Shown here one piece after another: positions 4,572 through 64,000 of a stretch of 64,000 bases of DNA (position 1 is the first letter of the stretch; every line of letters starts with the position of its first letter). Origin of the DNA: a virus (Duplodnaviria; Caudoviricetes); IMG/VR virus record IMGVR_UViG_3300044726_000026, positions 464-64,463 of that record; one strand, given 5' to 3'. Made by a program: the position numbers and the translations under genes. The notes beneath the pieces are model-generated. The model had not been told where the DNA came from and did not search any database. It saw only the letters and a list, made by a program, of their open reading frames with translations.

Positions 4572-5303
4572 ATGTCGGAAACCATGACGAAGAAAGCGGC
4601 CCGTTCGGTCTTGAAGAAGGTCGATGGGGTGTGCGTGGTCTACAGTGACGGCTCGATCCGTCTCGACAAGGTGCGGCTGTCCTACCCGTGGGTGGGCAAG
4701 GCGCAGAAGAACGTCAACGAACGGACAGGCGAGGAAACGTCTTCCTACAGCGTGTCCGCGATGTTGCCGAAGGAGACGCACCGTGCCGCCATGGAAGCGT
4801 GCGTCGATGCGGTCAAGGGTCTTGAGAAGCAGATGACCGCGAAGGGCAAGGGTAAAGGCGGCAAGGCGTTCAAGTACCAGACCTTGAAGAAGTTCATCAA
4901 GAACGGTGACGCGAAGGACGAGGACGGGGAGAGCCTGTTCCCCAATAACCCGGAATACGCGGGTCATTGGATCGTTAATGCCCGGTCCCCAAACCAGCCG
5001 CAGATACGCGGAGCGCAGCGTGATGTCGAAACCGGCAAGCCGGTGCGGCTGACCGCTGAACAGGCACAGAAGATGATCTACGGCGGGTGCTTTGCCACGG
5101 TCTTGATCCGGCCATGGCCGCAGGACAACGCCTATGGCATCCGTGCCAACTCTGAGTTGCTTGCGGTGCAGTGGCAGGGTAAAGGCACGCCCTTCGGCAA
5201 CGCGCATCGCCTGGACGAAGACGATATCGACGACAGCCTGGATATCGACGACAGCGACACCCTATCCGACGACGGCGGCTTCGGTTCCGACGACGAACTG
5301 TAG
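4572..5303 (+). CDS. DUF2815 ssDNA-binding/annealing protein
   Basis: VRLSYPW, IYGGC, YGIRANSELLAVQ...GTPFG, acidic tail; GGAGG RBS favours ATG at 4572. Confidence 0.85.
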   Translation: MSETMTKKAARSVLKKVDGVCVVYSDGSIRLDKVRLSYPWVGKAQKNVNERTGEETSSYSVSAMLPKETHRAAMEACVDAVKGLEKQMTAKGKGKGGKAFKYQTLKKFIKNGDAKDEDGESLFPNNPEYAGHWIVNARSPNQPQIRGAQRDVETGKPVRLTAEQAQKMIYGGCFATVLIRPWPQDNAYGIRANSELLAVQWQGKGTPFGNAHRLDEDDIDDSLDIDDSDTLSDDGGFGSDDEL

Positions 5304-5318
5304 GAAGTTACTTCCGTC

Positions 5319-7457: not shown

Positions 7458-7640
7458 ATGTGGTGGCGTGTTGATTGGTGTGAGGCAAACTCTCTTCAGC
7501 GGACGCGCAGGGAGTACATCGAGGCGGAAGACATCGGGGAAGTCTTCCGCGAGGTCGCCAAGATAACTTTTCTGTCCGACATGCACGGTTCCGCGTATGT
7601 GGATCGGGTAGCGGAACCGCCGGAAGAATATCGGAAGTAA
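7458..7640 (+). CDS. hypothetical protein
   Basis: Fills the gap between pol and MTase; its stop lies inside a palindrome copy. Confidence 0.55.
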   Translation: MWWRVDWCEANSLQRTRREYIEAEDIGEVFREVAKITFLSDMHGSAYVDRVAEPPEEYRK

Positions 7641-7645
7641 CTTCC

Positions 7646-8257
7646 ATGTCCATCATCAAATCCATCAACAGAAACGAAAGCGAGATCATCAACGGGATTT
7701 TGTCGTTGCACAACGGCGGGTTCCCGTTCGATCTCGACGTGTGCTATTCGCGGGGATCGTTCTATAAGTCTGGGGCGGTCCCCCAGCCTATCCGTCGCTT
7801 CGATATCGACCCGCAGGACTTCGACACGGAGAAAGCCTGTGTCACGGAACTGCCGGTCGAGGCCGCGTCGGTCGATAGCATCGTGTTCGATCCCCCGTTC
7901 ATGTTCAACCCGCACGGCACCGCTGCCGCCAAGAACGCGGCGGGCAAGCGGTTTACCATGTTCGCGACCTGGGAAGACCTGGAGCGGACCTACAAGCTGG
8001 CGCTGGATGAGTTCTATCGGGTGTTGCGCTATGAGGGGATCGTCGCGTTCAAGTGTCAGGATTACACCGATAGCGACACCGTGTTGACGCACTGTCACGT
8101 CTGGCAGTGGGCGCTCGCGCGAGGCTTCTACGCCAAGGATCTGATGATCCGTTATCGGGAAACCGGTCCCGCCTACAATCCTGCGCTCCGTCAGAGACAC
8201 GCCAGGAAGTTTCACAGCTATTGGTTCGTCTTCTCCAAGGAAAGGGACAGGTTATGA
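7646..8257 (+). CDS. orphan amino (N6A/N4C) DNA methyltransferase
   Basis: LDVCYSRGSF SAM-binding-like motif and VFDPPF catalytic motif. Confidence 0.75.
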   Translation: MSIIKSINRNESEIINGILSLHNGGFPFDLDVCYSRGSFYKSGAVPQPIRRFDIDPQDFDTEKACVTELPVEAASVDSIVFDPPFMFNPHGTAAAKNAAGKRFTMFATWEDLERTYKLALDEFYRVLRYEGIVAFKCQDYTDSDTVLTHCHVWQWALARGFYAKDLMIRYRETGPAYNPALRQRHARKFHSYWFVFSKERDRL

Positions 8258-37503: not shown

Positions 37504-37522
37504 TGAATGGAAGTAACTTCCA

Positions 37523-39716: not shown

Positions 39717-39740
39717 TTCGAACAGTGGAAGTTACTTCCG

Positions 39741-43762: not shown

Positions 43763-44473
43763 ATGGCGTATTCGACGGATCGCAAGGCGTTCTTCGACGC
43801 GGTAAGACGCGATCCGTTTGGCGGATCGCTCACGCAGGGTCAGGTCAACGGCATGAATTTTCTGTTGGACACCTGGGAGAGACACTTCGCCAAACAGAAC
43901 CCCAACGACGGAACCATGTGGCTCTCGTACGCCCTGGCGACGACCTACCATGAGAGCGCCGCCACGATGCGGCCCATCGAGGAATACGGGAAGGGCGCGG
44001 GCCACAGCTACGGAGAGCCGACCGGACCGTACGGACAATGCTACTACGGTCGAGGTCATGTGCAACTCACATGGGAAGAGAACTACATCAAAGGCCAGGA
44101 CCAGTTGAAGCCGTACGGTGTCAACGCGCCGCTGCACCGTGAGCCGGAGTTGATGTTGAACGACGAAACGTCGTCGCTGGTGTTGTACGACGGCATGATC
44201 GACGGCTGGTACACGGGCGTCGGCTTGCCGAAGTTCTTCGATGCCTCGAAGCGGCTTGAAGACCCGGTGAACGCCCGCAAGATCGTCAACGGTCTGGATC
44301 ACGCCGAGGAAATCGCCAGGACGTACTGGTCCTTCAAGACGGCGGTCGAAACCCTGTCCGTGCCGGATGTTGACAAGCCCGATGCCGAGGTCGTGATGGA
44401 GACAACTACCATCACAATCACCGCGCCGGTCGGTAGCAAGATCACGGTGAAGATGCCACCGGGAGTGGGGTGA
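43763..44473 (+). CDS. endolysin, GH19 chitinase/lysozyme-like
   Basis: YALATTYHES, YYGRGHVQLTW..NY, ARKIVNG. Confidence 0.85.
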   Translation: MAYSTDRKAFFDAVRRDPFGGSLTQGQVNGMNFLLDTWERHFAKQNPNDGTMWLSYALATTYHESAATMRPIEEYGKGAGHSYGEPTGPYGQCYYGRGHVQLTWEENYIKGQDQLKPYGVNAPLHREPELMLNDETSSLVLYDGMIDGWYTGVGLPKFFDASKRLEDPVNARKIVNGLDHAEEIARTYWSFKTAVETLSVPDVDKPDAEVVMETTTITITAPVGSKITVKMPPGVG

Positions 44474-44483
44474 AGTAACTTCC

Positions 44484-48997: not shown

Positions 48998-49349
48998 GCT
49001 GATGTCCTTTCTGTTTTCCAGCATGTATATTATCCCACAACGCAGCATGTATGTCAAGTTGAAGTGGAAGTGACTTCCGCCGCTTCCCTCTGACGATCTC
49101 GCTGATGCGTCCCTCGCTGTTAAGCCCGTGGGCATGAGCGATCTGGCTCATCGTCATGTGAGGAAAGTTCTCGTACATGTAGATGATGGACTTACGCATC
49201 TGGGGAGATATGCGCCGACTGACCGAGGGCGCACGCTTCAGCGGTGATCGGTTGTGCATCTCTTTACGCAGCACCGTTAGCCTGTCCGCCAACGCGCCGA
49301 CGACCTTAATCATGTCGTCCAGTTCCCGGCGCATATCATCCTTTGTCAT
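48963..49349 (-). CDS. HTH DNA-binding protein
   Basis: MTMSQIAHAHGLNSEGRISEIVRGK; GGAGG RBS. Confidence 0.65.
   Translation of the reverse strand: MTKDDMRRELDDMIKVVGALADRLTVLRKEMHNRSPLKRAPSVSRRISPQMRKSIIYMYENFPHMTMSQIAHAHGLNSEGRISEIVRGKRRKSLPLQLDIHAALWDNIHAGKQKGHQHESDPHQPNRP
49029..49057 (-). promoter_or_regulatory. sigma70-like early promoter
   Basis: TTGACA-N17-GATAAT on the minus strand. Confidence 0.75.
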
Positions 49350-50002: not shown

Positions 50003-50734
50003 TCACTTCCTTCTGAAAACATTCATCACGCGGAAACGGTGATTGGTTGACTTGACGATGCCCACCACCCCGATCAGGTCGAAGGTATCCTTGCGCCACA
50101 TGGGCAATACCTGATCGAGCCACACGACATGCGCCCCGGCGGGCAACCGGGCCAGTGCTACCAGCACCTTGTTACGCTTGACCATGGAGGTCTGATAGTG
50201 TTCCGCGTCCTCGACCGAGTACGGCGGGTCAGCCAACACGAGATCGTACCGGTCTAGCGGCACGTCCTCCAGGGTGTGCGCGTCGTCGGCGTAGTGTCTG
50301 GACCCTGACGTGTGGACGGACTCCGCAGCCAAGCTGATGTCCACTGTGTCCCCTGGAAACTTTTCGAGGTCTACGTGACCAGAGAACAGGTGCAGCGTGC
50401 GTTGCTTGTCGCGGAACAGAGCGCGGACACGCTCAAGGTAGGTGGCCGGGTACCCGCCGTAGAACTGGCTCTTGACGCGGTAGTCATTGCCCATGATCCA
50501 CGTCCCGACCAGACGCCCATCGGCTGAGATGAAGATGGCGTCGGGATAGCCGGTTTCGAAGCGGTAGTTCTCGATGCGGTCGGCCCAGCCCCACGGGTCG
50601 AACGGCGGGTCACGATTGACCAGCCGTGCGAGGTCCGCCGAGAGGGCTGTCGCCACGGTACGTGCCGCGCCGCCTGTCACGGGTCCGATCAGCCGTTCTC
50701 TGAGCCACTGGTACGCCTCATGCTGATCCATCAA
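50003..50734 (-). CDS. orphan amino (N6A/N4C) DNA methyltransferase
   Basis: LHLFSG SAM-binding-like motif; LVLADPPY. Confidence 0.75.
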   Translation of the reverse strand: MMDQHEAYQWLRERLIGPVTGGAARTVATALSADLARLVNRDPPFDPWGWADRIENYRFETGYPDAIFISADGRLVGTWIMGNDYRVKSQFYGGYPATYLERVRALFRDKQRTLHLFSGHVDLEKFPGDTVDISLAAESVHTSGSRHYADDAHTLEDVPLDRYDLVLADPPYSVEDAEHYQTSMVKRNKVLVALARLPAGAHVVWLDQVLPMWRKDTFDLIGVVGIVKSTNHRFRVMNVFRRK

Positions 50735-50987: not shown

Positions 50988-52220
50988 TTAGAGTTCGCCG
51001 GTAGCCGGTTCGGCAATGCCGAGTGCCCGCAGATCAGGGGCATCGTCACCTTCCTTCTCGTTGTCGTCATCGTCCTCGGACAGATCGTCTTCGTCATCGT
51101 CCGGGCCGAGTTCGTCATCGACAGACGCGGCGGGCTTTTTGCCGGCGGTCTTCGCGGCTTTCGCTGCTGCCTTCTCGGCAAGCACCTTGGCCGCAGCCTC
51201 GTCTTCCGCCGCCAGTTCATCGACTGTCTTCGCCCGCTGGATTTTGACCTCGAACGAGATGTCGGAGACGGCGATCTTTTTCTTGGGCGAGCGGGTGCCC
51301 TTGAACCAAGTCTCGTCGTCTTCGATCAGCGGCATGAACTTCTCCACGTCCTCGTAGAGAAATTCAACACCCTCCTTGACCGCGAAGTTCATCCGCGTGG
51401 TGGCCATCATGTTGCGCGGCGGCTTCTCCCCGTTGGCTTCGAGGGTCTTCCGCGTCAGCTTGTCGACTTTCTTCTGCTCATTCTCAGCCGCACGGGCGTC
51501 GGCCTTCGCGAGAGCGTCCATGATCTTCTGGCCGGTGGGGTCTTTGCGAAGCTGTGCAATCGCCTCATAGGCCGCGATCCGGTTGTCGCGGATCGCATCA
51601 CGCACGCCCTTCGGTGCGTTGATGATCGTCTTCAGGTCGCGAACGTGCTTGTTCGTGACACCAAGGCGGGCGGCGATATCGTCGTCGTCCATGCCGGTCT
51701 TCATCATGCGGTTGGCAAGGACGGCACGCTCCAAGATCGTCGGACGAACGCCGGTGTTCTCTTTCCACAGAGACACCGCCAGATCCATGTCAGACGATCC
51801 CGGCTTCTTCATCACGACAGGCAGACGGGAGATGTCCGCCCCTTCGCTCGCCGCCAACATGGCGGCTTCGTACCGGCGATGGCCCGAGATCAGAGCCAAC
51901 TTGGCTTCACCACCAAACTCGGCGGGGAACACACCGAGCGGCTGGGTGTCGTAGAAGCCCTCCATTTTCATGGCGTCGGCCAGTTCACGGATGCCGTCCT
52001 TGTACTCCTGGGTATCCGTCACACGCAGGTTGAACCCAGGCACCACGGTAATGCCGTCGAGGTCAACCATGTACAGCTTGCCGGTCTTGGTCGCACCGGA
52101 GTAGGCGAGTGCATCCCCGGACGTACTGGGGTCGAACTCGATCATCTTCATACTCACCCGGTTGGGTGGAGGGGCTTTCGCCCTCGGCGCTTTGGCCGCA
52201 GCTTTTGCTTGTTTTGCCAT
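50988..52220 (-). CDS. ParB-like protein A (N-domain, HTH, acidic C-terminus)
   Basis: PGFNLR, LISGHRRYEA, ENTG, HTH MDDDDIAARLGVTNKHVRD; start set at 52220 because the longer ORF overlaps its promoter. Confidence 0.85.
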   Translation of the reverse strand: MAKQAKAAAKAPRAKAPPPNRVSMKMIEFDPSTSGDALAYSGATKTGKLYMVDLDGITVVPGFNLRVTDTQEYKDGIRELADAMKMEGFYDTQPLGVFPAEFGGEAKLALISGHRRYEAAMLAASEGADISRLPVVMKKPGSSDMDLAVSLWKENTGVRPTILERAVLANRMMKTGMDDDDIAARLGVTNKHVRDLKTIINAPKGVRDAIRDNRIAAYEAIAQLRKDPTGQKIMDALAKADARAAENEQKKVDKLTRKTLEANGEKPPRNMMATTRMNFAVKEGVEFLYEDVEKFMPLIEDDETWFKGTRSPKKKIAVSDISFEVKIQRAKTVDELAAEDEAAAKVLAEKAAAKAAKTAGKKPAASVDDELGPDDDEDDLSEDDDDNEKEGDDAPDLRALGIAEPATGEL

Positions 52221-52280
52221 TGGAAGACGCTTGCCTTTCAGGTTGTTCGAACCGGGGAGGGTGTCTCCCTCGGTCCTCAG

Positions 52281-52309
52281 AGTTAAGCACCATGCGATTT
52301 GCATGTCAA
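52281..52309 (-). promoter_or_regulatory. sigma70-like promoter of ParB-like gene A
   Basis: TTGACA-N17-TTAACT; palindrome 9 bp upstream of the -35. Confidence 0.65.
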
Positions 52310-53398: not shown

Positions 53399-53427
53399 AG
53401 CATAGCGCCACGCAAAACGTATGTCAA
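53399..53427 (-). promoter_or_regulatory. sigma70-like early promoter (leftward)
   Basis: TTGACA-N17-TATGCT. Confidence 0.8.
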
Positions 53428-53441
53428 GTTGAGTCTGACGT

Positions 53442-53534
53442 GCGTAGTGGCGGAGTGGGTGGGCGTGCGTAGTGGCGGAGTGGGTACGGCGCGTAGTGGC
53501 GGAGTGGGTAAGGGCGCGTAGTGGCGGAGTGGGT
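53442..53534. repeat. four 19-bp direct repeats, 24-25 bp period
   Basis: GCGTAGTGGCGGAGTGGGT at 53442, 53467, 53491 and 53516. Confidence 0.95.
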
Positions 53535-53811
53535 AACACGGACGCGGGCTTCACGCATGGGCGGGGGTTCTCTCGCCGGGGACGCTCGCTCGCGTGTGCA
53601 TGTGCGCGTACGCAAGCGTGTGCGGGTACCCACGGGTACACGTGATGGCGCATGACCCTACGTGTGGGTACGCGTACGCGCGTGCGAGATCGTGTAGCGT
53701 GCGCGCATGACAACGCGCGTGATACGCGCCCGGTTTTCATGTGATCGCGATCCGCGCGAGCGCATGTGTCGGCTGAAGTCACTTCCACCGTGTTGTGGGG
53801 CAAAACATGGC

Positions 53812-53840
53812 TTGACATACATTTTGCAGGGTAGTATGCT
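53812..53840 (+). promoter_or_regulatory. sigma70-like early promoter (rightward)
   Basis: TTGACA-N17-TATGCT. Confidence 0.8.
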
Positions 53841-55233: not shown

Positions 55234-55262
55234 TTGACATACACTCCGCGTGGTGGTAGTAT
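55234..55262 (+). promoter_or_regulatory. sigma70-like early promoter
   Basis: TTGACA-N17-TAGTAT. Confidence 0.7.
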
Positions 55263-57859: not shown

Positions 57860-58059
57860 AGATGCACCCATCAGTCACCCTGGATCGTGTCGTTGCCGCC
57901 GTGCGGCGCTACAACGAGACGACCGACAACCCAGGCATCTGCATCGCTTGCGGGGCCGACGCCGAGGATGTCGAGCCTGATGCCCGTGCCTACGAGTGCG
58001 ACCATTGCGGTTCTCATCGCGTCTACGGCGCGGAAGAACTGCTGATGATGCTGGCATGA
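57856..58059 (+). CDS. zinc-ribbon protein
   Basis: GICIACG...VEPDA..YECDHCG...VYGAEEL. Confidence 0.7.
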   Translation: MKMHPSVTLDRVVAAVRRYNETTDNPGICIACGADAEDVEPDARAYECDHCGSHRVYGAEELLMMLA

Positions 58060-58394
58060 AGTTACTTCTCCTGGTCGTGGCGCTCGCCACGACCAGTTGC
58101 GCGTCGAGGCAGTACGTCTCGACGTGCTCATCCATACCGGGGCAGAACCCGGCCTATTTCGAGGCATTCGATAAGCAATGGGGATCTGACACACGCCACA
58201 GCGCCGGGTACCTCGACGCCGTGGCGCAGGAGAAGGCCGGGAACTGTTCCGCCGTGTTCGACTACCTGAACCCCGGCTACCGGCAAACCGAGGCGTACAG
58301 CGCCGAACTACGCGGCGCGCTTCGCAGTGCCTACGAGACAGACCTGGCTCTGGCTCCGTGGTACTACTACCGCTACCGTCCCTATCACCGCTAA
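58056..58394 (+). CDS. putative lipoprotein
   Basis: MKLLLLVVALATTSC lipobox-like signal. Confidence 0.6.
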   Translation: MKLLLLVVALATTSCASRQYVSTCSSIPGQNPAYFEAFDKQWGSDTRHSAGYLDAVAQEKAGNCSAVFDYLNPGYRQTEAYSAELRGALRSAYETDLALAPWYYYRYRPYHR

Positions 58395-58411
58395 CAACAG
58401 GAGCAAAACCC

Positions 58412-58993
58412 ATGACCGAGATCGACGAGATCGTCGCGAATATCCCGCTTGCCGGGATGTCCTCGCGCGTCGCGTGCCGCCGAAAGGTGGAAGAACTGAT
58501 GGAAGGAGAAAACGAAACAATAAAAACCCAGGTGGTCGATGCCTTATGGGATCGCTACGTCGAGGGCTGGCCGCATGACCTGTTCGTCAAGCGGTTGCTG
58601 GAAGTTACTTCCGGCCAGAAGGTCGGTTGCATCCTGCGCGTCATGTTCAACGACCCGCGCCAGTACCAGCCGCGCTATGACCGTCAGGCGATCATCACGT
58701 CCGACGGGTACCTCATGTGCGGGTTCACGGACACGAAGGGGGACTATCACCCCGGCGCGTTTGTCGGTTCGGCGTTCGAACTGACGCGCAACCTGATCGC
58801 CGTTTGCGTGTTCGCCAAATTGAGCGGCGATGAAATCCTGGCGCTTGGGGACGCCGCTGATAGTTGGATCGGGACCGACTATCGGGCCGGGGCTTCGTAC
58901 CCGCCGAGGCTGGTCCTGAACACCGCCGAGAGCGAGCGCGCATCGCAAGAGGCGCTGGCCATCTATGGGGAGCATATGAAACCCCCAACTTGA
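58412..58993 (+). CDS. hypothetical protein
   Basis: AACAGGAGCAAAAC RBS. Confidence 0.65.
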   Translation: MTEIDEIVANIPLAGMSSRVACRRKVEELMEGENETIKTQVVDALWDRYVEGWPHDLFVKRLLEVTSGQKVGCILRVMFNDPRQYQPRYDRQAIITSDGYLMCGFTDTKGDYHPGAFVGSAFELTRNLIAVCVFAKLSGDEILALGDAADSWIGTDYRAGASYPPRLVLNTAESERASQEALAIYGEHMKPPT

Positions 58994-59018
58994 CATACGT
59001 TTTGCGTGGTGGTATGAT
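58990..59018 (+). promoter_or_regulatory. sigma70-like early promoter
   Basis: TTGACA-N17-TATGAT; spacer nearly identical to the 53399-53427 promoter. Confidence 0.8.
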
Positions 59019-59198
59019 TGGACATGATCGAAAAGGGGGCCGGGTCGATCAGGAAGTTACTTCCGGCCCATCAACAGGAGCAACGATGCCACCCAAACCG
59101 AAGTGCCTGACACCCCGCAAATGCGTCATCCCGCATGGGTGGTATCGGGCTTTTTGCGAAAAGTGTCAGGCTACCAAAAAGCAACAGGAGCAAAACCA

Positions 59199-59405
59199 AT
59201 GCGTCTCCGAGCAGTGCGTAATCTCAGGCGTGGCGACCGCATCGCCCTGGACGCGCCGGAGGAACCCCTCGTTGAAGTGGTATCGGTAGATACCGCCGAC
59301 GCGCCGGGGTACTACGGCGTCAGGATGAGGATCATCGGCGGCGTCGAGTGCCGACCGATGGTCAACGCGGTCTGGCCGGGTGACGATCTGGTCGAGTTGG
59401 CCTGA
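59199..59405 (+). CDS. hypothetical protein
   Basis: AACAGGAGCAAAAC RBS. Confidence 0.55.
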   Translation: MRLRAVRNLRRGDRIALDAPEEPLVEVVSVDTADAPGYYGVRMRIIGGVECRPMVNAVWPGDDLVELA

Positions 59406-59602
59406 TGTTCGGCACCTATTCACGGCTGCGCCTCCACGTCAGCGCGAGCGACACGGAGGTCGTGCGAGCGGCACGCAGGATGCTGGACATGCGGAAGTGC
59501 CTCGGCACTCGCAAGCTGCGTCAAGCTCGACGCCGCTTCTACCGGCAAATGCTGAAATTTCACCACGACAATCAGGCGATGTTTCGGCGCTACCGTTTCT
59601 GA
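59405..59602 (+). CDS. basic hypothetical protein
   Basis: TGATG coupling. Confidence 0.6.
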   Translation: MFGTYSRLRLHVSASDTEVVRAARRMLDMRKCLGTRKLRQARRRFYRQMLKFHHDNQAMFRRYRF

Positions 59603-59625
59603 AGTTACTTCCAAAGGAAAAAATC

Positions 59626-59868
59626 ATGGCCACCTATATGATGCTTGTCGTTGGTGCGACGGAGGAAGAGGCGTCACTCTTCCTCACACAAGCAGAGATC
59701 AAACAAGTGTTCGACAGCGTGCCGGAACCGTGGCGTCACACGGCACGGCTCGTGGTCGAGCATCTCGGCAATACGGCAATCCTGAATTTGCTCGCCACGC
59801 TGCCTGATACCTGTCCCGACCAATTCCACGGCGGGTGGAGCACGTTGGAACGGGCCGACGAAGACTGA
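59626..59868 (+). CDS. hypothetical protein
   Basis: AAAGGA RBS. Confidence 0.55.
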   Translation: MATYMMLVVGATEEEASLFLTQAEIKQVFDSVPEPWRHTARLVVEHLGNTAILNLLATLPDTCPDQFHGGWSTLERADED

Positions 59869-59958
59869 AGTATACTTCCACAGACGGATGCCACCTCGCG
59901 GGGTGGCATCAGCCTGTCGAAGACGGCGGGACAACACACCAACAGGAGCAACACGACT

Positions 59959-60255
59959 ATGGCTTACGAACAAGGCGAAGTGATCGTGCCGGTGCTGAAC
60001 ATCAACGGAGCATCTGGCGACGATCTCTTGGGTGCGTACCAGGCGGCGCTCGACGCGCTGCGTGAGGCGATCACCTGCATGAACATGACCGCGCCGCACG
60101 GTCGGGACTTTCAGACCGAGCAGGAGTCGGTTCTGCGCGAGGCGCGTGACCAGCACCAGCGGCGGGTCAAGGCGGTCGCCGAGGTCTATCGCGACATCGA
60201 GGCGATTGCCTGTGCCGTGCATGACCAGTTGATGATCCGTCGTTTCGGTCGGTAA
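59959..60255 (+). CDS. hypothetical protein
   Basis: AACAGGAGCAAC RBS; P.LNINGASG..L...APHGRD. Confidence 0.65.
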   Translation: MAYEQGEVIVPVLNINGASGDDLLGAYQAALDALREAITCMNMTAPHGRDFQTEQESVLREARDQHQRRVKAVAEVYRDIEAIACAVHDQLMIRRFGR

Positions 60256-60270
60256 AAGGAAGTTACTTCC

Positions 60271-60492
60271 ATGATCGACAACTTCGAAAGTCGCATCCGA
60301 GAGTGGCGTTGGTACATCGCCGAGCAGAAAGTCGAACACCTGCTTGACACCAAATCCACAATCGTTGCGTGGTTGAAAAATCCGCTCCACATCTACGGGA
60401 CCGGGCCGACCGCGCAATCCGACCTCGAGTACGACCAGCTTCGGCTGGTCGAGATCGACGCCGAGATCAGACGTAGACGCCCACAGACGTAG
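60271..60492 (+). CDS. hypothetical protein
   Basis: ATG directly after a palindrome; stop inside the first unit of the repeat array. Confidence 0.55.
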   Translation: MIDNFESRIREWRWYIAEQKVEHLLDTKSTIVAWLKNPLHIYGTGPTAQSDLEYDQLRLVEIDAEIRRRRPQT

Positions 60493-60692
60493 CGCGGGTA
60501 CGCTGACCCACAGACGTAGCGTGGGTACGCTGACCCACAGACGTAGGGTAGGGCGCGTCCCCCACAGACGTAGGGTGGGGGCGCGCATGGCCTGACCGGC
60601 CACGCCAGGTACCATGACCCACAGCCGTATAGTGGGTACCCCTCCCCACAGCCGGGGAGTGGGTACCCACCCCCACAGACGTAGGGTGGGGG
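60480..60692. repeat. 27-bp-period array of CCCACAGACGTAG...GTGGG units (7 copies, degenerate)
   Basis: Units at 60480, 60507, 60534, 60561, 60618, 60645 and 60672. Confidence 0.9.
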
Positions 60693-60942
60693 AGCGAGCG
60701 TGCAAACGCGTACATCCGCGAGGGTGTGCGCGTATGCGCCTACGCGCGTACGCGCGCGTGCGTACGCCCGCGAGGGCGTGTGTGCGTGTGGGGGAGTGGG
60801 GGCGCTCGCGTATGCGTGCGAGCGTGTGACGCGGCTGCGCGGTTTCCGTATGACGCGCAACGCGGGCGGGCGGACGGGCTGGCGGACGCGGCCAGCCGCC
60901 CGCCTTGGCGGACGGGCTGGACGGTTGGCCGGTTGGCCGGTT

Positions 60943-60997
60943 GGCGGAAGTCACTTCCGGCAATTCGCAACCGGAACAATCGGAAGTGACTTCCGCC
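60943..60997. repeat. 17-bp inverted repeat built from two palindrome copies
   Basis: GGCGGAAGTCACTTCCG-N21-CGGAAGTGACTTCCGCC. Confidence 0.9.
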
Positions 60998-61075
60998 CGA
61001 TTGCCAGCCCGTCCAGAGCGGCCAGCCCGCCGCAATATTTGGCGGACTTCCGCCAACGGTTGCCGGTTTGAAGGT

Positions 61076-61104
61076 TTGACATACACCTAGCGTTGTGGGA
61101 TTAT
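61076..61104 (+). promoter_or_regulatory. sigma70-like promoter of ParB-like gene B
   Basis: TTGACA-N17-GATTAT. Confidence 0.7.
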
Positions 61105-61170
61105 GTGTTGCGGGAAAAAACCCGCCGCCAAGGCAATTGCCGGACGCGAAACGATTAGGAGTAAAACCAA

Positions 61171-62769
61171 GTGACGACAAATAGCTTCAAAAGCATTGCC
61201 GGTTTCACAATGCTTTCTGGCCTTCCCTGTATTGATCCGGCCATGATCCGGACCATTCCAGGTTACAACGTCCGCGATGCTTTCTCGCCCGAAACGGACG
61301 CGGCGGACGCCCAACTCGCGGACAATATGGCCGCGAACGGTTTCATCGCGGACAAGCCCATTACCGTCCGCATTGTGGACAACGTGGCGTACGTCATTGC
61401 CGGCCATCGCAGGCTGGACGCGGCCAATTGGCTAAACGCCCGTTATCTCGCGGCCAACCCGGCCAAGGGAAAGGCCAAGGCCAAGGCGGCTGCGGCCAAC
61501 CGTCCGATACGCGGCGTGACGTTCATTCCGGAAGCGGTACAGGCCAACGGTGAAATTCGTTCTCCGGTTGAAATGTCCTATGATCTCGAATTGAGCAACA
61601 CGGGCAAACCGCTTTCGCCAGCGGAACGCGGCGCGAATATCCTGCGGCTGCGCGCCATGGGAGAAACGGACGAAACGATCGCGCAACGGCTTGGCATCGG
61701 CACGCGTTGGGTTGGCGATTTGGCCAAGCTTGGCCGCAGTGATCCGCGATTGAAGGCGCTTGTTAAGGCGGGCGTCATTCCGCCTACAACGGCCATCCTG
61801 CTAGAACGCGCCCATGGTTCGGAAACCGGAACGGCAATCGCGATTGCCGCCGCCGCTCTCGCGGCGGCGGACGGCAAGCCCAACGCAACCGGCAAGCATG
61901 TGGCGGAAGCGGAAACCAACGCGGGCGTTGTCGCCAAGGTTGGCGGCAAGAACAAGAAAGGCGCGGACAAGCGGCCAGAGGAAACGCCCGCCGCGCCAAC
62001 CGTTACCGTCATTCCGGAAAAGGCCAAGGCCAACCCGGACAGTCCGCTTGTTACGATTGCGACACTGGCGGGACCGTTTCACTTGGGAAAGGATCTCGAA
62101 GAGCGGACGTTGTATGACGCCAACGGTTTGACGTTGTGCGAAATGGTGGACGTTGGGATGGCACGCGCAATGCTCCAACTCGCAATGCTGGGTTGGAACG
62201 TTGTGCGCGGAACGTCCGCCAGCGCAGCCGCAACGGAAGCGGCTGCGGCCAGCCCGCCAGCCGCCAAAGTGACGGCCAAGGCCAAGGCGGCTGCGGACGC
62301 CAAGGCCAAGGCGGACGCCAAGGCGGCTGCGGACGCGGAAGCGGCTGCGGCCATCGCGGCGGAAGCGGCTGCGCTGGACGCGGCGGAAGCCAAGGCCAAG
62401 CGCCAAGCGGAAGCCCGCGAGCGTGTTGCCCGTCAGGTTGCGGCGGACGATGCCAAGCGGGTTGCGGCTGCGGAAGCAAACCGCGCGGCGGCTGCGGCCA
62501 TGGTTGCCGGGAAGCCCATTGCGGCCATGGCCAAGGCGGCTGCGGCCAAAGTGACGGCCAAGGCCAAGGCGGACGCGGCCAAGGCGGCTGCGGACGCTCT
62601 GGCGGCTGCGGAAGCGGCGGAAGCGGAAGCGGCTGCGCTGGCCAAGGCGGAAGCGGCCAACGTCCGCAACGCCAACCGGGAAGCGGCCAAGGTTGCCAAG
62701 GCGGCTGCGGCTGCGGCCGCTCTGGCGGCTGGCAAGGCCAACGGAAAGGCCAAGCCCGCGCGGAAGTAG
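61171..62769 (+). CDS. ParB-like protein B (N-domain, HTH, long Ala/Lys-rich tail)
   Basis: PGYNVR, YVIAGHRRLDA, SNTGKPLSPAE, HTH ETDETIAQRLGIGTRWVGD; AGGAG RBS; own promoter and terminator. Confidence 0.85.
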   Translation: MTTNSFKSIAGFTMLSGLPCIDPAMIRTIPGYNVRDAFSPETDAADAQLADNMAANGFIADKPITVRIVDNVAYVIAGHRRLDAANWLNARYLAANPAKGKAKAKAAAANRPIRGVTFIPEAVQANGEIRSPVEMSYDLELSNTGKPLSPAERGANILRLRAMGETDETIAQRLGIGTRWVGDLAKLGRSDPRLKALVKAGVIPPTTAILLERAHGSETGTAIAIAAAALAAADGKPNATGKHVAEAETNAGVVAKVGGKNKKGADKRPEETPAAPTVTVIPEKAKANPDSPLVTIATLAGPFHLGKDLEERTLYDANGLTLCEMVDVGMARAMLQLAMLGWNVVRGTSASAAATEAAAASPPAAKVTAKAKAAADAKAKADAKAAADAEAAAAIAAEAAALDAAEAKAKRQAEARERVARQVAADDAKRVAAAEANRAAAAAMVAGKPIAAMAKAAAAKVTAKAKADAAKAAADALAAAEAAEAEAAALAKAEAANVRNANREAAKVAKAAAAAAALAAGKANGKAKPARK

Positions 62770-62775
62770 TCTAAC

Positions 62776-62812
62776 AAGCCCGCCGCTCAATTGAGCGGCG
62801 GGCTTTTCTTTT
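62776..62812 (+). terminator. rho-independent terminator
   Basis: AAGCCCGCCGCTC-AATT-GAGCGGCGGGCTT-TTCTTT. Confidence 0.85.
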
Positions 62813-62833
62813 CTCTTTTGTTGGAGTGTTGCC

Positions 62834-63040
62834 GTGTTTGCTCAATTCATACTTGATTGCTTCCCTGCGGACGTTTCGCAGTATGGCCTTATCGGCTGCG
62901 GTTTCTTTTCTGTACTTGTGGCCAGCATGGCCGGTTGGCTGGCGTGTTTCGCTTGGCTGGCCTTTGTCACTGTCCGCGATAGCTTGGCGGAAGCCCGCCG
63001 CGATTGCGCGGCGTACAACGCCCGCAACGGGTTGCGCTGA
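62834..63040 (+). CDS. small membrane protein
   Basis: GGAG RBS, GTG start, hydrophobic core. Confidence 0.4.
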   Translation: MFAQFILDCFPADVSQYGLIGCGFFSVLVASMAGWLACFAWLAFVTVRDSLAEARRDCAAYNARNGLR

Positions 63041-63138
63041 TATGCTGGCCGTGTTGCTGGCGGGCGTTGCCGTTGTGGCATTGCTTGGCCTTTGGGTTGT
63101 TCTGGACGCCTAAGCCCGTCCAGCCCGCCCGCCTTCCC

Positions 63139-63170
63139 AACCCGTCCGCCGCAAGGCGGGCGGGTTTTTT
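63139..63170 (+). terminator. rho-independent terminator
   Basis: AACCCGTCCGCC-GCAA-GGCGGGCGGGTT-TTTT. Confidence 0.7.
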
Positions 63171-63331
63171 CATGTCCGCCGCTTGGCCGCTCTGGCCGCT
63201 CTGGCCGCTCTGGACGGGCTGGCCAACCCGTCCAGAGCGGCCAGCCCGCCAGAGCGCAGCCGCAACCCGGCCAGCGCAGCCGCCTTGGCCAGAGCGCAGC
63301 CGCCCGCCAGCCCGCCAGCCGCAACCCGGCC

Positions 63332-63373
63332 AACCCGCCCGCCTTCCCAACCGGAAGGCGGGCGGGTTTTTTT
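63332..63373 (+). terminator. rho-independent terminator
   Basis: AACCCGCCCGCCTTCC-CAACC-GGAAGGCGGGCGGGTT-TTTTT. Confidence 0.7.
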
Positions 63374-63988
63374 ATGCCCGTTGCGGGCGGGTGCGGCGGG
63401 CTTACAGGCGGGCGGCTGGCCAGCCCGCTAGGGTACTAGCGGCCAGCCGCCCGCCCGCCTGTACGCCGCTCTGGACGCCCGCAAAGGCCATGCCGGGTTT
63501 TCTCATGCCGTGAGATTGTCTCATGTGGCGAGAAATCGCCGTACACGGCGTCCAGCCGCCAGCCCGCTAGGGTACTGGCCGCGCAATGCGGGCTGGCCTG
63601 TACGCCGCTCTGGACGCCCGCAAAGGGTATGCCGTCCGCGTAACATTTACGCCCGCGCAACCGTGCGACAATTCGGCAACACTGCGGACGGGCTGGCGGG
63701 CGGGCTGGCCAGCGCAACCCGGCCAGCCCGCTATTGCGCTAGCGTATCGGAAGCAACTTCCGATTGTGACGCTAGCGCAATGGCGCCATGGCGTGGCATA
63801 TGGTGCGATTGTGCAATGGTGCGATAGTGCAACCATGGTGCGGGTACCCTATTGCGTACGCGCAACGGTACGGGCTGGCGGGCGGACGGGCTGGCGGACG
63901 GGCTGGCGGGCTGGCGTTGCGCGATCGCAATAAATATTCATTCGGCAACCGCAATGGGGTCCCATCTCGATTGCGTAACGAGTGGGGG

Positions 63989-64000
63989 AGGGCGCAGAGC
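63989..64000 (+). other. putative cos cohesive end (Chi-like)
   Basis: Last 12 nt AGGGCGCAGAGC match 10/12 to GGTGCGCAGAGC, the Chi-type cos sequence as I recall it; gpA-type terminase present. Confidence 0.6.

What the first reader, a model, noticed from the sequence alone, without database searches (positions are those of the whole stretch)
60480..64000. Cos-proximal 3.5 kb segment with altered oligonucleotide usage: possible first-injected, site-depleted leader
Seen (qualitative): in ParB-like gene B, Glu is almost always GAA (9 of 9 in the first ~210 codons I read). Ala/Thr/Pro before Asp/Glu nearly always end in G (GCG GAC, GCG GAA, ACG GAC), avoiding the GCCGAC/GCCGAG/ATCGAC strings that are very common elsewhere. 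The segment carries one large gene with its own promoter and three terminators, and is bounded by a hairpin-repeat array. Established: T5 and T7 first deliver a terminal segment encoding early anti-host functions, and T5 pauses at a repeat- and palindrome-rich stop signal. Inference: staged entry in which ParB-B is made first from defence-site-poor DNA and then binds the incoming site-rich remainder.
Basis: partly seen in the sequence, partly recalled or inferred. Interest (0 to 1): 0.8.

Follow-up and report, generated by a model that had tools for sequence, protein, structure and literature searches.

The report
Odd-composition ParB cassette beside cos
The last 3.5 kb of this soil phage genome really does use DNA words differently from the rest, but it looks like a separately evolving, repeat-built early-gene cassette for an orphan ParB-type DNA-binding protein rather than a stretch cleared of restriction sites.

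Summary
Window 60480-64000 is the most deviant 3.5-kb stretch of a 64,463-nt cos phage genome (delta* 183 against a median of 54). GA/TC is at 0.54x and CGA/TCG at 0.33x. ParB-B uses GAA for 27 of 30 Glu. Ala/Thr/Pro codons before Asp/Glu end in G in 29 of 31 cases, against 117 of 381 elsewhere.

The "defence-site-poor leader" reading fails its own test. After sub-word correction, TCGA and GATC have O/E 1.1 and 1.3. 6-bp palindromes are 2.5x enriched and GGCC 3.4x. A close relative's allele keeps GATC at backbone density.

The segment is a conserved cos-adjacent cassette. It holds a control region, one of six TTGACATAC promoters, ParB-B (ParB/KorB/Noc fold), small membrane ORFs, three terminators and GCCAGCC-word arrays.

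Against relative L003, the core 60873-63748 has dS 1.0-1.6, while the flanking genes have 0.14-0.18, so it is a recombining mosaic unit. The bounding "hairpin array" has a paralogue at 53.4 kb.

Staged entry could not be tested.

The parts
60470..60700 (+). Array of about 7 hairpin-type units of roughly 27 nt (core CCCACAG...GTGGGTA). It starts at the stop codon of the last backbone gene (60271-60492).
   Evidence: the repeat finder family D2. The RNA fold is -114.5 kcal/mol, z = -3.55. Identity to L003 is 100% in the 60500 and 60600 bins, and L003 has two more units. A related 4-unit array lies at 53440-53535.
60724..60827 (.). Alternating purine-pyrimidine (Z-DNA-prone) tract, containing the genome's longest perfect alternating run (27 nt at 60741).
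   Evidence: Alternation fraction is 0.78 against a genome mean of 0.52 (sd 0.057). The only higher tract is at 53586-53685. It is conserved in L001, L002 and L003.
60873..60945 (.). Left edge of the divergent cassette: short GC-rich word repeats (GGACGGGCTGG, GGTTGGCC).
   Evidence: Identity to L003 drops from 0.96 (60480-60840) to 0.66-0.68 at about 60872. Repeat families D5, D13 and D16.
60946..60994 (.). Two perfect 13-bp palindromes GGAAGTNACTTCC (60946-60958 and 60982-60994), lying 82-118 bp upstream of the -35 element.
   Evidence: The same palindrome occurs 64 times in the window at up to 1 mismatch, against 0.12 expected.
61039..61056 (.). Palindrome with 8-bp arms and a 2-nt centre, 20 bp upstream of the -35 element. 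Possible operator or antisense stem-loop.
   Evidence: Read. A palindrome in the same place occurs in L002 but not in L003.
61076..61104 (+). Sigma-70-type promoter: TTGACA, 17-nt spacer, GATTAT, with an extended -10 TG. It is one of six TTGACATAC promoters.
   Evidence: It is conserved in L001, L002 and L003.
61171..62769 (+). parB-B, 532 aa with a GTG start. It has a ParB-type N-terminal domain plus HTH (about residues 15-250), a small conserved domain (about 300-345), and an Ala/Lys/Glu-rich tail predicted as two long helices (373-521).
   Evidence: PHROG 1033, E = 4e-28. Foldseek matches M. xanthus ParB 7bnr, KorB 8qa9 and Noc 7ol9 at E = 2e-6 to 1e-5. The N-terminus from the GTG start is conserved in homologues. 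No Pfam, NCBIfam or PADLOC match.
62776..62815 (+). Intrinsic terminator 1.
   Evidence: 13-bp stem with 10 G-C pairs, then a T-run.
62834..63040 (+). Small ORF, 68 aa. It is hydrophobic, judged by eye with no predictor run. Conserved in L001 and L003.
   Evidence: Translation. Homologous ORFs read. Against L003, dS is 0.96 and dN 0.15.
63042..63113 (+). Mini-ORF, 23 aa, hydrophobic. Conserved in L001 and L003.
   Evidence: Translation. Homologous ORFs read.
63139..63166 (+). Intrinsic terminator 2.
   Evidence: 12 pairs.
63180..63330 (.). Dense word repeats, including a 44-bp near-perfect palindrome (63201-63244). One arm of it recurs, inverted, at 61003-61025 upstream of the promoter.
   Evidence: Inverted repeats I6 (23 nt, 100% complementary) and I12 (22-nt arms, 95%). 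Sub-threshold Rfam C4 hit, 33 bits against a gathering score of 45.
63332..63368 (+). Intrinsic terminator 3.
   Evidence: 16 pairs.
63419..63634 (.). Two 77-nt direct repeats (63419-63495 and 63558-63634, 83% alike). Their counterparts are conserved in L002 and L003.
   Evidence: Repeat family D8.
63749..63761 (.). Variant palindrome GGAAGCAACTTCC, marking the right edge of the divergent cassette.
   Evidence: Identity to L003 rises to 0.93 from 63741 to the end of that contig at 63826.
63873..63920 (+). Four tandem GGGCTGGCG(G/T) words on the + strand, within 130 nt of the right end.
   Evidence: (D5).
63989..64000 (.). 12-nt sequence repeated at both genome ends (cohesive-end sequence).
   Evidence: L002 ends at the homologous position.

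Best explanation
The segment is a self-contained early-gene cassette that sits at the right cos end in a clade of uncultured soil or freshwater Chi-like (Casjensviridae-type) siphophages.

Its order is: repeat array, then an alternating purine-pyrimidine tract, then 13-bp palindromes, then a TTGACATAC promoter, then parB-B, then a terminator, then two small hydrophobic ORFs, then two more terminators, then repeat-rich DNA up to cos.

Its deviant oligonucleotide usage has four sources.
1. More than half of it is noncoding or low-complexity DNA built from a small vocabulary of GC-rich words that lack GA/TC.
2. parB-B has a codon preference (GAA, CAA, and in this allele also ATT and GTT) that its homologues share.
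3. parB-B follows a codon-context rule: NNG before GAN and NNC before AAN.
4. The core 60873-63748 is inherited as a separate mosaic unit. It is exchanged between related phages through the highly conserved flanks, so it carries its own sequence history. Within each allele the noncoding repeats and the coding tail share allele-specific words, which points to concerted evolution by slippage or conversion, or to selection for a shared DNA word.

Inferred function (not shown). ParB-B is an orphan ParB/KorB/Noc-type dimeric DNA clamp, made early from a host-type promoter. It would load on sites in or around its own cassette (the GCCAGCC-word arrays and/or the 13-bp palindromes). It would organise, regulate or protect phage DNA, rather than partition a plasmid.
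For: A conserved cassette at the genome end. L001, L002 and L003 show the same order of elements. L002 ends at the homologous cos position.

Mosaic unit. Identity to L003 is 0.94-0.96 at 59900-60840, 0.50-0.76 at 60841-63740, and 0.93 at 63741-63826. dS is 0.14 and 0.18 for the two upstream genes. It is 1.02 for parB-B (1.62 in the first 340 codons) and 0.96 for the small ORF, with dN/dS about 0.1.

Word vocabulary. GCCAGCC/GGCTGGC occurs 25 times in the segment (7.2 per kb in the cassette core) against 23 times in the other 60.5 kb (0.38 per kb). The enrichment holds in all four phages: 7.2, 9.5, 3.1 and 4.9 per kb against 0-0.38 per kb in the backbones. Allele-specific 8-mers are shared between the noncoding and coding parts of the same cassette and are absent from the other allele. 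GGCGGACG occurs 3 + 6 times here and 0 + 0 in L003. CGAGGCGG occurs 4 + 6 times in L003 and 0 + 0 here.

The signature is kept across saturated divergence. GA+TC is 79, 96, 97 and 104 per kb in the four cassettes, against 141-145 in the backbones. GAA makes up 27/30, 24/31, 26/32 and 16/23 of Glu codons.

Context rule. Before GAN the preceding third base is G in 37 and C in 9 of 56 cases (rest: G 28%, C 46%). Before AAN it is C in 49 and G in 8 of 65 cases (rest: C 47%, G 37%).

ParB fold plus HTH. No ParA-type ATPase (PF13614) and no tyrosine integrase (PF00589) in a genome that CheckV rates 100% complete.

Early expression is plausible. The promoter belongs to a six-member family, all between 49 and 61 kb.
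Against: The force that keeps GA/TC low is not identified.

The codon-context bias varies between alleles (z = -6.9, -5.5, -2.7 and -1.4). It is therefore neither a fixed property of the cassette nor obviously neutral.

The non-repetitive N-terminal 340 codons are also biased, so repeats alone do not explain the signal.

Only three relatives with DNA were available. L003 is a 4.6-kb contig, with just 1.2 kb of backbone and 86 aligned columns of right flank.

A locally raised mutation rate could mimic the high dS.

No binding, expression or entry data exist. ParB-B's target sites are guesses.
Confidence: 0.5

Rival explanations
1. The right 3.5 kb enters first and pauses at the repeat array. 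It is kept poor in defence targets. ParB-B, made from it, then coats or binds the incoming remainder.
For: - The segment is terminal, starts at a conserved repeat-rich noncoding block, and has a strong host-type promoter and terminators.
- Raw counts of GATC (7 against 26.5) and TCGA (3 against 24.4) are low. TCGA is low in all four cassettes: 0.6-1.2 per kb against 6.4-9.1.
- The noncoding boundary is far better conserved than the genes behind it. The T5 preprint 10.1101/866236 reports the same pattern for the T5 injection stop region (passages read).
- 64 palindromes are spread over the rest of the genome.
- A ParB-like protein encoded on first-entering DNA has a precedent in F-plasmid HerB/YfjB (bioRxiv 10.64898/2026.07.07.736705; passages read).
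Against: - The depletion is explained by sub-words (O/E 1.1-1.3).
- Other palindromes are 2.5-3.4x enriched.
- GATC is at backbone level in L003's allele.
- The promoter is one of six.
- A paralogous array plus tract sits internally at 53.4-53.7 kb.
- There are no long terminal repeats. No DnaA-box-like sites occur in the array: 0 of 23 window matches lie in 60480-60860. No relatives of T5 pre-early genes appeared in the PHROG scans.
- Which end enters first is unknown.
Confidence: 0.1
2. A purely historical signal. The cassette was imported from another lineage and simply keeps the donor's composition, with no ongoing selection.
For: Sharp identity boundaries and 6-10x higher dS than the flanks. 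Pieces identical to the window's allele, and one diverged piece whose loose end reads like L003's allele, lie in the same run X4. Codon usage differs from all 38 other genes.
Against: The same GA/TC-poor, GCCAGCC-rich signature is present in four alleles whose synonymous sites are saturated. Amelioration should have erased a passive relic. A GA/TC relative abundance of about 0.69 (one search counts against base composition) matches no donor signature that I know of; that is recall, not a test. No bacterial genome in genome contigs encodes a relative.
Confidence: 0.15
3. The noncoding word arrays near the end are cos-accessory or end-protection sites. They could be terminase or host-factor binding sites. 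Alternatively they could be Chi-like GCTGGCGG decoys that tame a RecBCD-type exonuclease entering at the right end. On this view the odd composition is their by-product.
For: - Four tandem GGGCTGGCG(G/T) words lie within 130 nt of the right end, on the strand that would be read from that end. L002 has two GCTGGCG words in the same place and orientation.
- GCTGGCGG is one of five candidate Chi motifs in Proteobacteria (PMC8022716; passages read).
- GCTGGCGG occurs 12 times on the + strand and 8 times on the - strand, against 2.6 and 1.7 expected.
Against: The words occur in both orientations across the cassette (13 + and 12 -). The backbone orientation bias is weak (6 against 3). The host and its Chi sequence are unknown. 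PMC8022716 itself warns of false positives in GC-rich genomes. This reading does not explain parB-B's codon usage.
Confidence: 0.15

Closest known systems
ParB-CTPase-fold DNA clamps with an HTH (chromosomal ParB/Spo0J, RK2 KorB, Noc)
   Same: The predicted N-terminal 235 residues superpose on ParB (7bnr), KorB (8qa9) and Noc (7ol9, 7nfu) with Foldseek probability 1.00. A G-H-R-R motif sits where the arginine patch lies and is nearly invariant in homologues. Short palindromes lie upstream of its own promoter and all over the genome. This recalls KorB's dispersed palindromic operators, which I cite from memory.
   Different: No ParA partner. No match to the Pfam or NCBIfam ParB models, and no PDB hit by sequence. 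It has an extra small domain and a 190-aa Ala/Lys/Glu helical tail in place of the usual C-terminal dimerisation domain. It is encoded next to a phage cos end.
HerB (YfjB), the ParB-like protein of the F-plasmid leading region (bioRxiv 10.64898/2026.07.07.736705; abstract and passages read)
   Same: An orphan ParB-like protein with a CTP-binding domain, an HTH and a novel C-terminal module. It is encoded on a terminal or early segment of a mobile element and made right after entry.
   Different: HerB is expressed from single-stranded-DNA promoters during conjugation and binds the host chromosome. Here the promoter is an ordinary double-stranded sigma-70 type, the target is unknown, and first entry of this end is not shown. 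Sequence relatedness was not tested, because no HerB sequence was in hand.
Phage T5 first-step-transfer region and injection stop signal (bioRxiv 10.1101/866236; abstract and passages read)
   Same: A terminal segment of a few percent of the genome (5.5% here, 7.9% in T5), bounded by a repeat- and palindrome-rich noncoding block. That block is much better conserved than the adjacent genes, and the genes are expressed from host-type promoters.
   Different: No long terminal repeat (12-nt cos ends). No DnaA-box pairs. No A1, A2 or dmp relatives detected. The repeat block has an internal paralogue at 53.4 kb. Two-step entry has not been tested.
Mosaic module exchange in tailed phages (a general principle; recalled)
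   Same: Sharp transitions from 94-96% to about 70% identity at conserved flanks, with purifying selection inside.
   Different: The exchanged unit also carries a private oligonucleotide signature and private repeated words, shared between its coding and noncoding parts.

Membership tests
ParB superfamily (CTPase-fold N-domain plus HTH) | [quoted passage not shown] | tested here: met
   Foldseek E = 2e-6 to 1e-4 against 7bnr, 8qa9, 7ol9, 1vz0 and 7nfu over 210-243 columns. The model has pLDDT about 80 over residues 10-260. PHROG 1033, E = 4e-28.
ParB superfamily (CTPase-fold N-domain plus HTH) | Arginine-patch nucleotide-binding motif (canonical G-E-R-R, recalled) and CTP binding | tested here: inconclusive
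   G78-H79-R80-R81 are nearly invariant, and R35 and N143 are conserved, in the 10-sequence alignment. The catalytic Glu position is His. No residue-level superposition or binding assay was possible.
ParABS partition system | A partner ParA/Soj-type ATPase | tested here: not met
   PF13614 finds 0 matches in the complete genome, while the control rings in 14 of 14 genomes. There is also no integrase.
ParABS partition system / KorB regulon | A cognate palindromic site bound by the protein | not testable with these tools
   Candidate sites exist: the 13-bp palindrome (64 copies) and the GCCAGCC arrays. Binding cannot be computed here.
T5-type first-step-transfer leader | Long terminal direct repeats containing the leader | tested here: not met
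   Only a 12-nt terminal repeat.
T5-type first-step-transfer leader | A conserved repeat- and palindrome-rich stop region with paired DnaA boxes (as proposed in 10.1101/866236) | tested here: not met
   A repeat-rich conserved block is present. However, 0 DnaA-box matches (up to 1 mismatch) fall in 60480-60860, and a paralogous block lies at 53.44-53.71 kb.
T5-type first-step-transfer leader | Two-step entry that needs proteins made from the leader | not testable with these tools
   This needs an entry assay. The phage is uncultured and came from a soil metagenome.
Restriction-site avoidance island | Palindromic 4-6-mers depleted relative to their own sub-words | tested here: not met
   Markov O/E is 1.11 for TCGA, 1.34 for GATC and 1.07 for GGCC. 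All 6-bp palindromes total 51 against 20.8 expected from the backbone.

The most novel reading that the evidence does not exclude
A phage counterpart of the plasmid leading region. The right cos end enters first. It carries a self-sufficient, frequently exchanged cassette whose orphan ParB/KorB-like clamp is made at once from a host promoter. The clamp then loads on about 70 GGAAGTNACTTCC palindromes of the incoming genome, and perhaps on host DNA as HerB does. On this view the cassette's private word usage, the Chi-like GCTGGCGG words at the very tip and the Z-prone tract are adaptations of naked first-entering DNA.
Probability: 0.1. Interest if true: 0.8.

Novelty: new variant of a known kind. 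Interest (0 to 1): 0.45.

Why it matters
Orphan ParB-fold proteins are now being found to do many things besides partition. Examples are KorB silencing, HerB host reprogramming after plasmid entry, and activation of phage thymidine dioxygenases (PMC13229309; passages read).

This is a ParB-fold protein of a small, unnamed subfamily: 29 representative clusters at E <= 1e-30 among 1.84 billion proteins. It sits in a fixed place at a phage genome end. Its cassette is swapped between near-identical backbones, and the coding and noncoding parts of the cassette share allele-specific DNA words.

That gives a concrete, testable system for asking what a phage ParB does early in infection and what keeps such a signature in place.

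It also warns that raw low counts of restriction sites in a short segment can be a by-product of lower-order composition.

Tried and rejected
- Megablast and blastn of the segment and of the cos-proximal 241 nt against 50,697 phage records found no match.
- tblastn of ParB-B against phages gave only 25-31% identity hits over the N-terminal 35-44% in 9 records (AH2, 7-7-1, Milano, Erythrobacter and Sphingomonas phages).
- Genome contigs held no relative. The metagenome scan gave one locus only.
- Pfam, NCBIfam and PADLOC gave nothing for ParB-B or the small ORFs. A PDB search by sequence profile gave 0 hits.
- Rfam gave nothing above a gathering score. The best hit was C4 antisense RNA, 33 bits against 45, on the 44-bp palindrome.
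- Reads were all Logan contigs. The two RNA-library rows X9 and X10 look like one data set. They hold near-identical pieces only at 63653-63816 and 63849-63999, plus low-complexity look-alikes of the tail from other organisms. This does not show transcription, and no expression claim is made.
- DnaA boxes in the array: none.
- Chi-like orientation bias in the backbone is weak (6 + against 3 -).
- The 13-bp palindrome is not significantly rare in the segment. No copy lies in 60995-63748 (2.75 kb) at a genome density of about 1 per kb, which gives P of about 0.06 (my arithmetic).
- AH2, which has only a ParB-A-like gene, has no over-represented palindrome in the 32.8 kb checked out of its 58 kb.
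The contigs of homologues P0004-P0007 (up to 22.9 kb) therefore could not be fetched.
- Supplements were closed. The species lists behind the GCTGGCGG motif in PMC8022716 were not seen.
- For PMC5959072 I saw only the search listing (22 occurrences of GCTGGCGC); I did not read the paper.

Full report
**What the DNA is.** The window is bases 464-64463 of a 64,463-nt virus record that CheckV rates as complete. Both ends carry the same 12 nt. An independently assembled relative (L002) stops at the homologous position. The record ends are therefore physical cohesive ends, and the finding does lie against the right end.

Gene content places the phage with the Chi-like Casjensviridae. TerL is 53-59% identical to AH2, Enc34 and MA11. 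The DUF2800 exonuclease, Gp2.5-like protein, DNA polymerase, helicases, portal and protease are all present. The source is a soil metagenome, and identical pieces occur in a freshwater-sediment run. The host is unknown.

- Among 122 sliding 3.5-kb windows, the last one is the extreme for dinucleotide distance (183; median 54) and for tetranucleotide correlation (0.05; median 0.62).
- The change is abrupt at about 60,490.
- GA/TC falls to 0.54x, CGA/TCG to 0.33x and ATC/GAT to 0.36x. GCC/GGC rises 1.9x and CGC/GCG 1.8x.
- The CGA/TCG deficit is seen in both noncoding flanks and in both halves of the gene.
- parB-B uses GAA 27:3 (rest 372:432), ATT:ATC 13:8 (89:584) and GTT:GTC 14:7 (172:447).
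- Ala/Thr/Pro codons before Asp/Glu end in G in 29 of 31 cases, against 117 of 381.
- Keeping the protein and the gene's own codon usage fixed, CGA on the coding strand is 18 against 52.5 +/- 4.8. In the non-repetitive first 340 codons it is 16 against 31.1 +/- 3.8.
- No other gene behaves like this: the 38 other genes have z between -1.2 and +3.0, and parB-B has -6.9.
G is preferred before GAN (37 of 56) and C before AAN (49 of 65).

**Is it depletion of defence sites?** The tests say no.
- GATC (7 against 26.5) and TCGA (3 against 24.4) are rare in raw counts. Relative to their own trinucleotides they are not: O/E is 1.34 and 1.11.
- Inside parB-B neither is below expectation once amino acids are controlled.
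- Other restriction-type palindromes are enriched: GGCC 63 against 18.7, CGCG 58 against 33.8, CTAG 7 against 1.8, and all 6-bp palindromes 51 against 20.8.
- The closest relative's version of the cassette has GATC at 9.9 per kb, as in backbones.
- The clade does show one clear avoidance, GANTC, but it is genome-wide: 46 against 234 here, 5 against 44 in L001 and 9 against 46 in L002.

**What the segment is.** Three relatives share the architecture: L001 and L002 from IMG/VR, and L003 from a JGI metagenome. Their ParB-B proteins are 62-83% identical to this one.

The shared order is: repeat array, alternating purine-pyrimidine tract, 13-bp palindromes, TTGACATAC promoter, parB-B, terminator, small hydrophobic ORFs, further terminators, and conserved repeats up to cos.

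ParB-B has these properties.
- It matches PHROG 1033.
- Its model superposes on ParB, KorB and Noc over the CTPase-fold domain plus HTH.
- It adds a small conserved domain and a long Ala/Lys/Glu tail predicted as two helices.
- It has no Pfam, NCBIfam, PADLOC or PDB-sequence match.
- Its subfamily is small: 29 representative clusters at E <= 1e-30. The N-terminal half reaches 2,274 ParB-like clusters at E <= 1e-3.
- The genome has a second ParB-like gene (50988-52304, minus strand) next to a methyltransferase.
- The genome has no ParA-type ATPase and no integrase. A partition role is therefore unlikely.

**The cassette has its own history.** Against L003, identity by region is as follows.

| Region | Identity to L003 |
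|---|---|
| 59900-60840 | 94-96% (the array itself reaches 100%) |
| 60841-63740 | 50-76% |
| 63741-63826 (end of that contig) | 93% |

Synonymous divergence is 0.14 and 0.18 in the two genes just upstream. It is 1.0-1.6 in parB-B and 0.96 in the small ORF, with dN/dS about 0.1. This is the pattern of an old allele moved onto a nearly identical backbone by recombination in the conserved flanks.

**The signature is maintained, not just inherited.** All four cassettes are GA/TC-poor (79-104 per kb against 141-145) and rich in GCCAGCC/GGCTGGC (3.1-9.5 per kb against 0-0.38). All four genes prefer GAA (70-90%). This holds although their synonymous sites are saturated. A passive donor relic should have faded.

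The strength of the C|GA avoidance varies between alleles: z = -6.9, -5.5, -2.7 and -1.4.

Each allele has private words that occur both in its noncoding repeats and in its coding tail, and not at all in the other allele. I read this as concerted evolution of a repeat-built region by slippage or conversion, possibly constrained by a DNA-binding partner. The cause is not shown.

**The special-leader anatomy is less special than it looked.**
- The promoter is one of six with the same extended -35 element and a conserved spacer. All six lie between 49 and 61 kb. parB-B therefore belongs to a general early regulon.
- The bounding array has a four-unit paralogue at 53440-53535. That paralogue is followed by the only other comparable alternating purine-pyrimidine tract, a 13-bp palindrome and another TTGACATAC promoter. 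The array looks like part of a promoter-upstream control region rather than a unique stop signal.
- It contains no DnaA-box-like sites.

**What remains open.** I could not determine which end enters first, whether entry is staged, when parB-B is expressed, or what the protein binds.

The left end (genome 1-463, outside the window) has its own repeats, which could be terminase sites. By analogy with lambda (recalled) that would make the right end the last packaged and the first out, but this is inference.

The four GGGCTGGCG(G/T) words at the very tip resemble a candidate proteobacterial Chi motif. This is a lead only.

**Verdict.** The defence-site-poor, staged-entry interpretation is not supported where it could be tested, and it was untestable elsewhere.

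The best reading is a conserved, recombining, repeat-built early cassette for an orphan ParB-fold protein at the cos end. This is a new variant of a known kind and of moderate interest.

Noticed in passing
whole window, e.g. 5303-5315, 7633-7645, 37509-37521, 39727-39739, 44471-44483, 60258-60270: The 13-bp palindrome GGAAGTNACTTCC occurs 64 times at up to 1 mismatch (46 perfect), against 0.12 expected. That is about one per kb, on either side of and inside genes. Many copies end 0-3 nt before a start codon, so GGAAG sits where a ribosome-binding site would be. The core GAAGT-N-ACTTC is equally dense in L001 (19 in 12 kb) and L002 (22 in 12.5 kb). It is absent from the 32.8 kb of Burkholderia phage AH2 that I checked.
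   Followed up: partly
whole genome; also L001 and L002: GANTC is about fivefold under-represented genome-wide: 46 against 234 expected from base composition here, 5 against 44 in L001 and 9 against 46 in L002. By contrast, GATC and TCGA are about twofold over base-composition expectation in the backbone.
   Followed up: partly
49049-49057(-), 53419-53427(-), 53812-53820(+), 55234-55242(+), 58990-58998(+), 61076-61084(+): Six promoters share TTGACATAC, a conserved spacer element (GCGTKGTGG) and an extended -10 element. All lie in the right 15 kb. They look like one early regulon.
   Followed up: partly
53440-53830: A second control region is built like the one upstream of parB-B. It has four GTAGTGGCGGAGTGGGTA units, an alternating purine-pyrimidine tract (53586-53710, alternation 0.81), a 13-bp palindrome and divergent TTGACATAC promoters. 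The same unit type appears in the arrays upstream of parB-B in L001 and L002.
   Followed up: partly
G000:C1:1-463 (left end, outside the window): The left cos-proximal 463 nt are much less GC-rich (47%). They carry about 8 CCTGTACC/GGTACAGG words, T-rich GCGG repeats and two 13-bp palindromes. They are possible terminase or bending sites.
   Followed up: no
7646-8257(+) and 50003-50734(-): There are two DNA methyltransferase-like genes (PHROG 24333 and 3816). The second lies beside ParB-like gene A (50988-52304, minus strand). Their target motifs are unknown.
   Followed up: no
63197-63248: The 44-bp near-perfect palindrome gives a sub-threshold Rfam match to phage P1/P7 C4 antisense RNA (33 bits, gathering score 45, E = 0.0013).
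   Followed up: no
63653-63999: Contigs of a soil metatranscriptome library (X9 and X10, apparently one data set) contain this cos-proximal stretch with 0-1 differences, but contain no near-identical piece of parB-B. This may be carried-over DNA.
   Followed up: no
58000-64000, run X4: One freshwater metagenome run holds pieces identical to this allele (for example 61118-61268 and 62731-62881). It also holds a diverged piece (61556-61745, 26 differences) whose loose end reads like the L003 allele. This suggests that both cassette alleles co-occur in that sample.
   Followed up: partly
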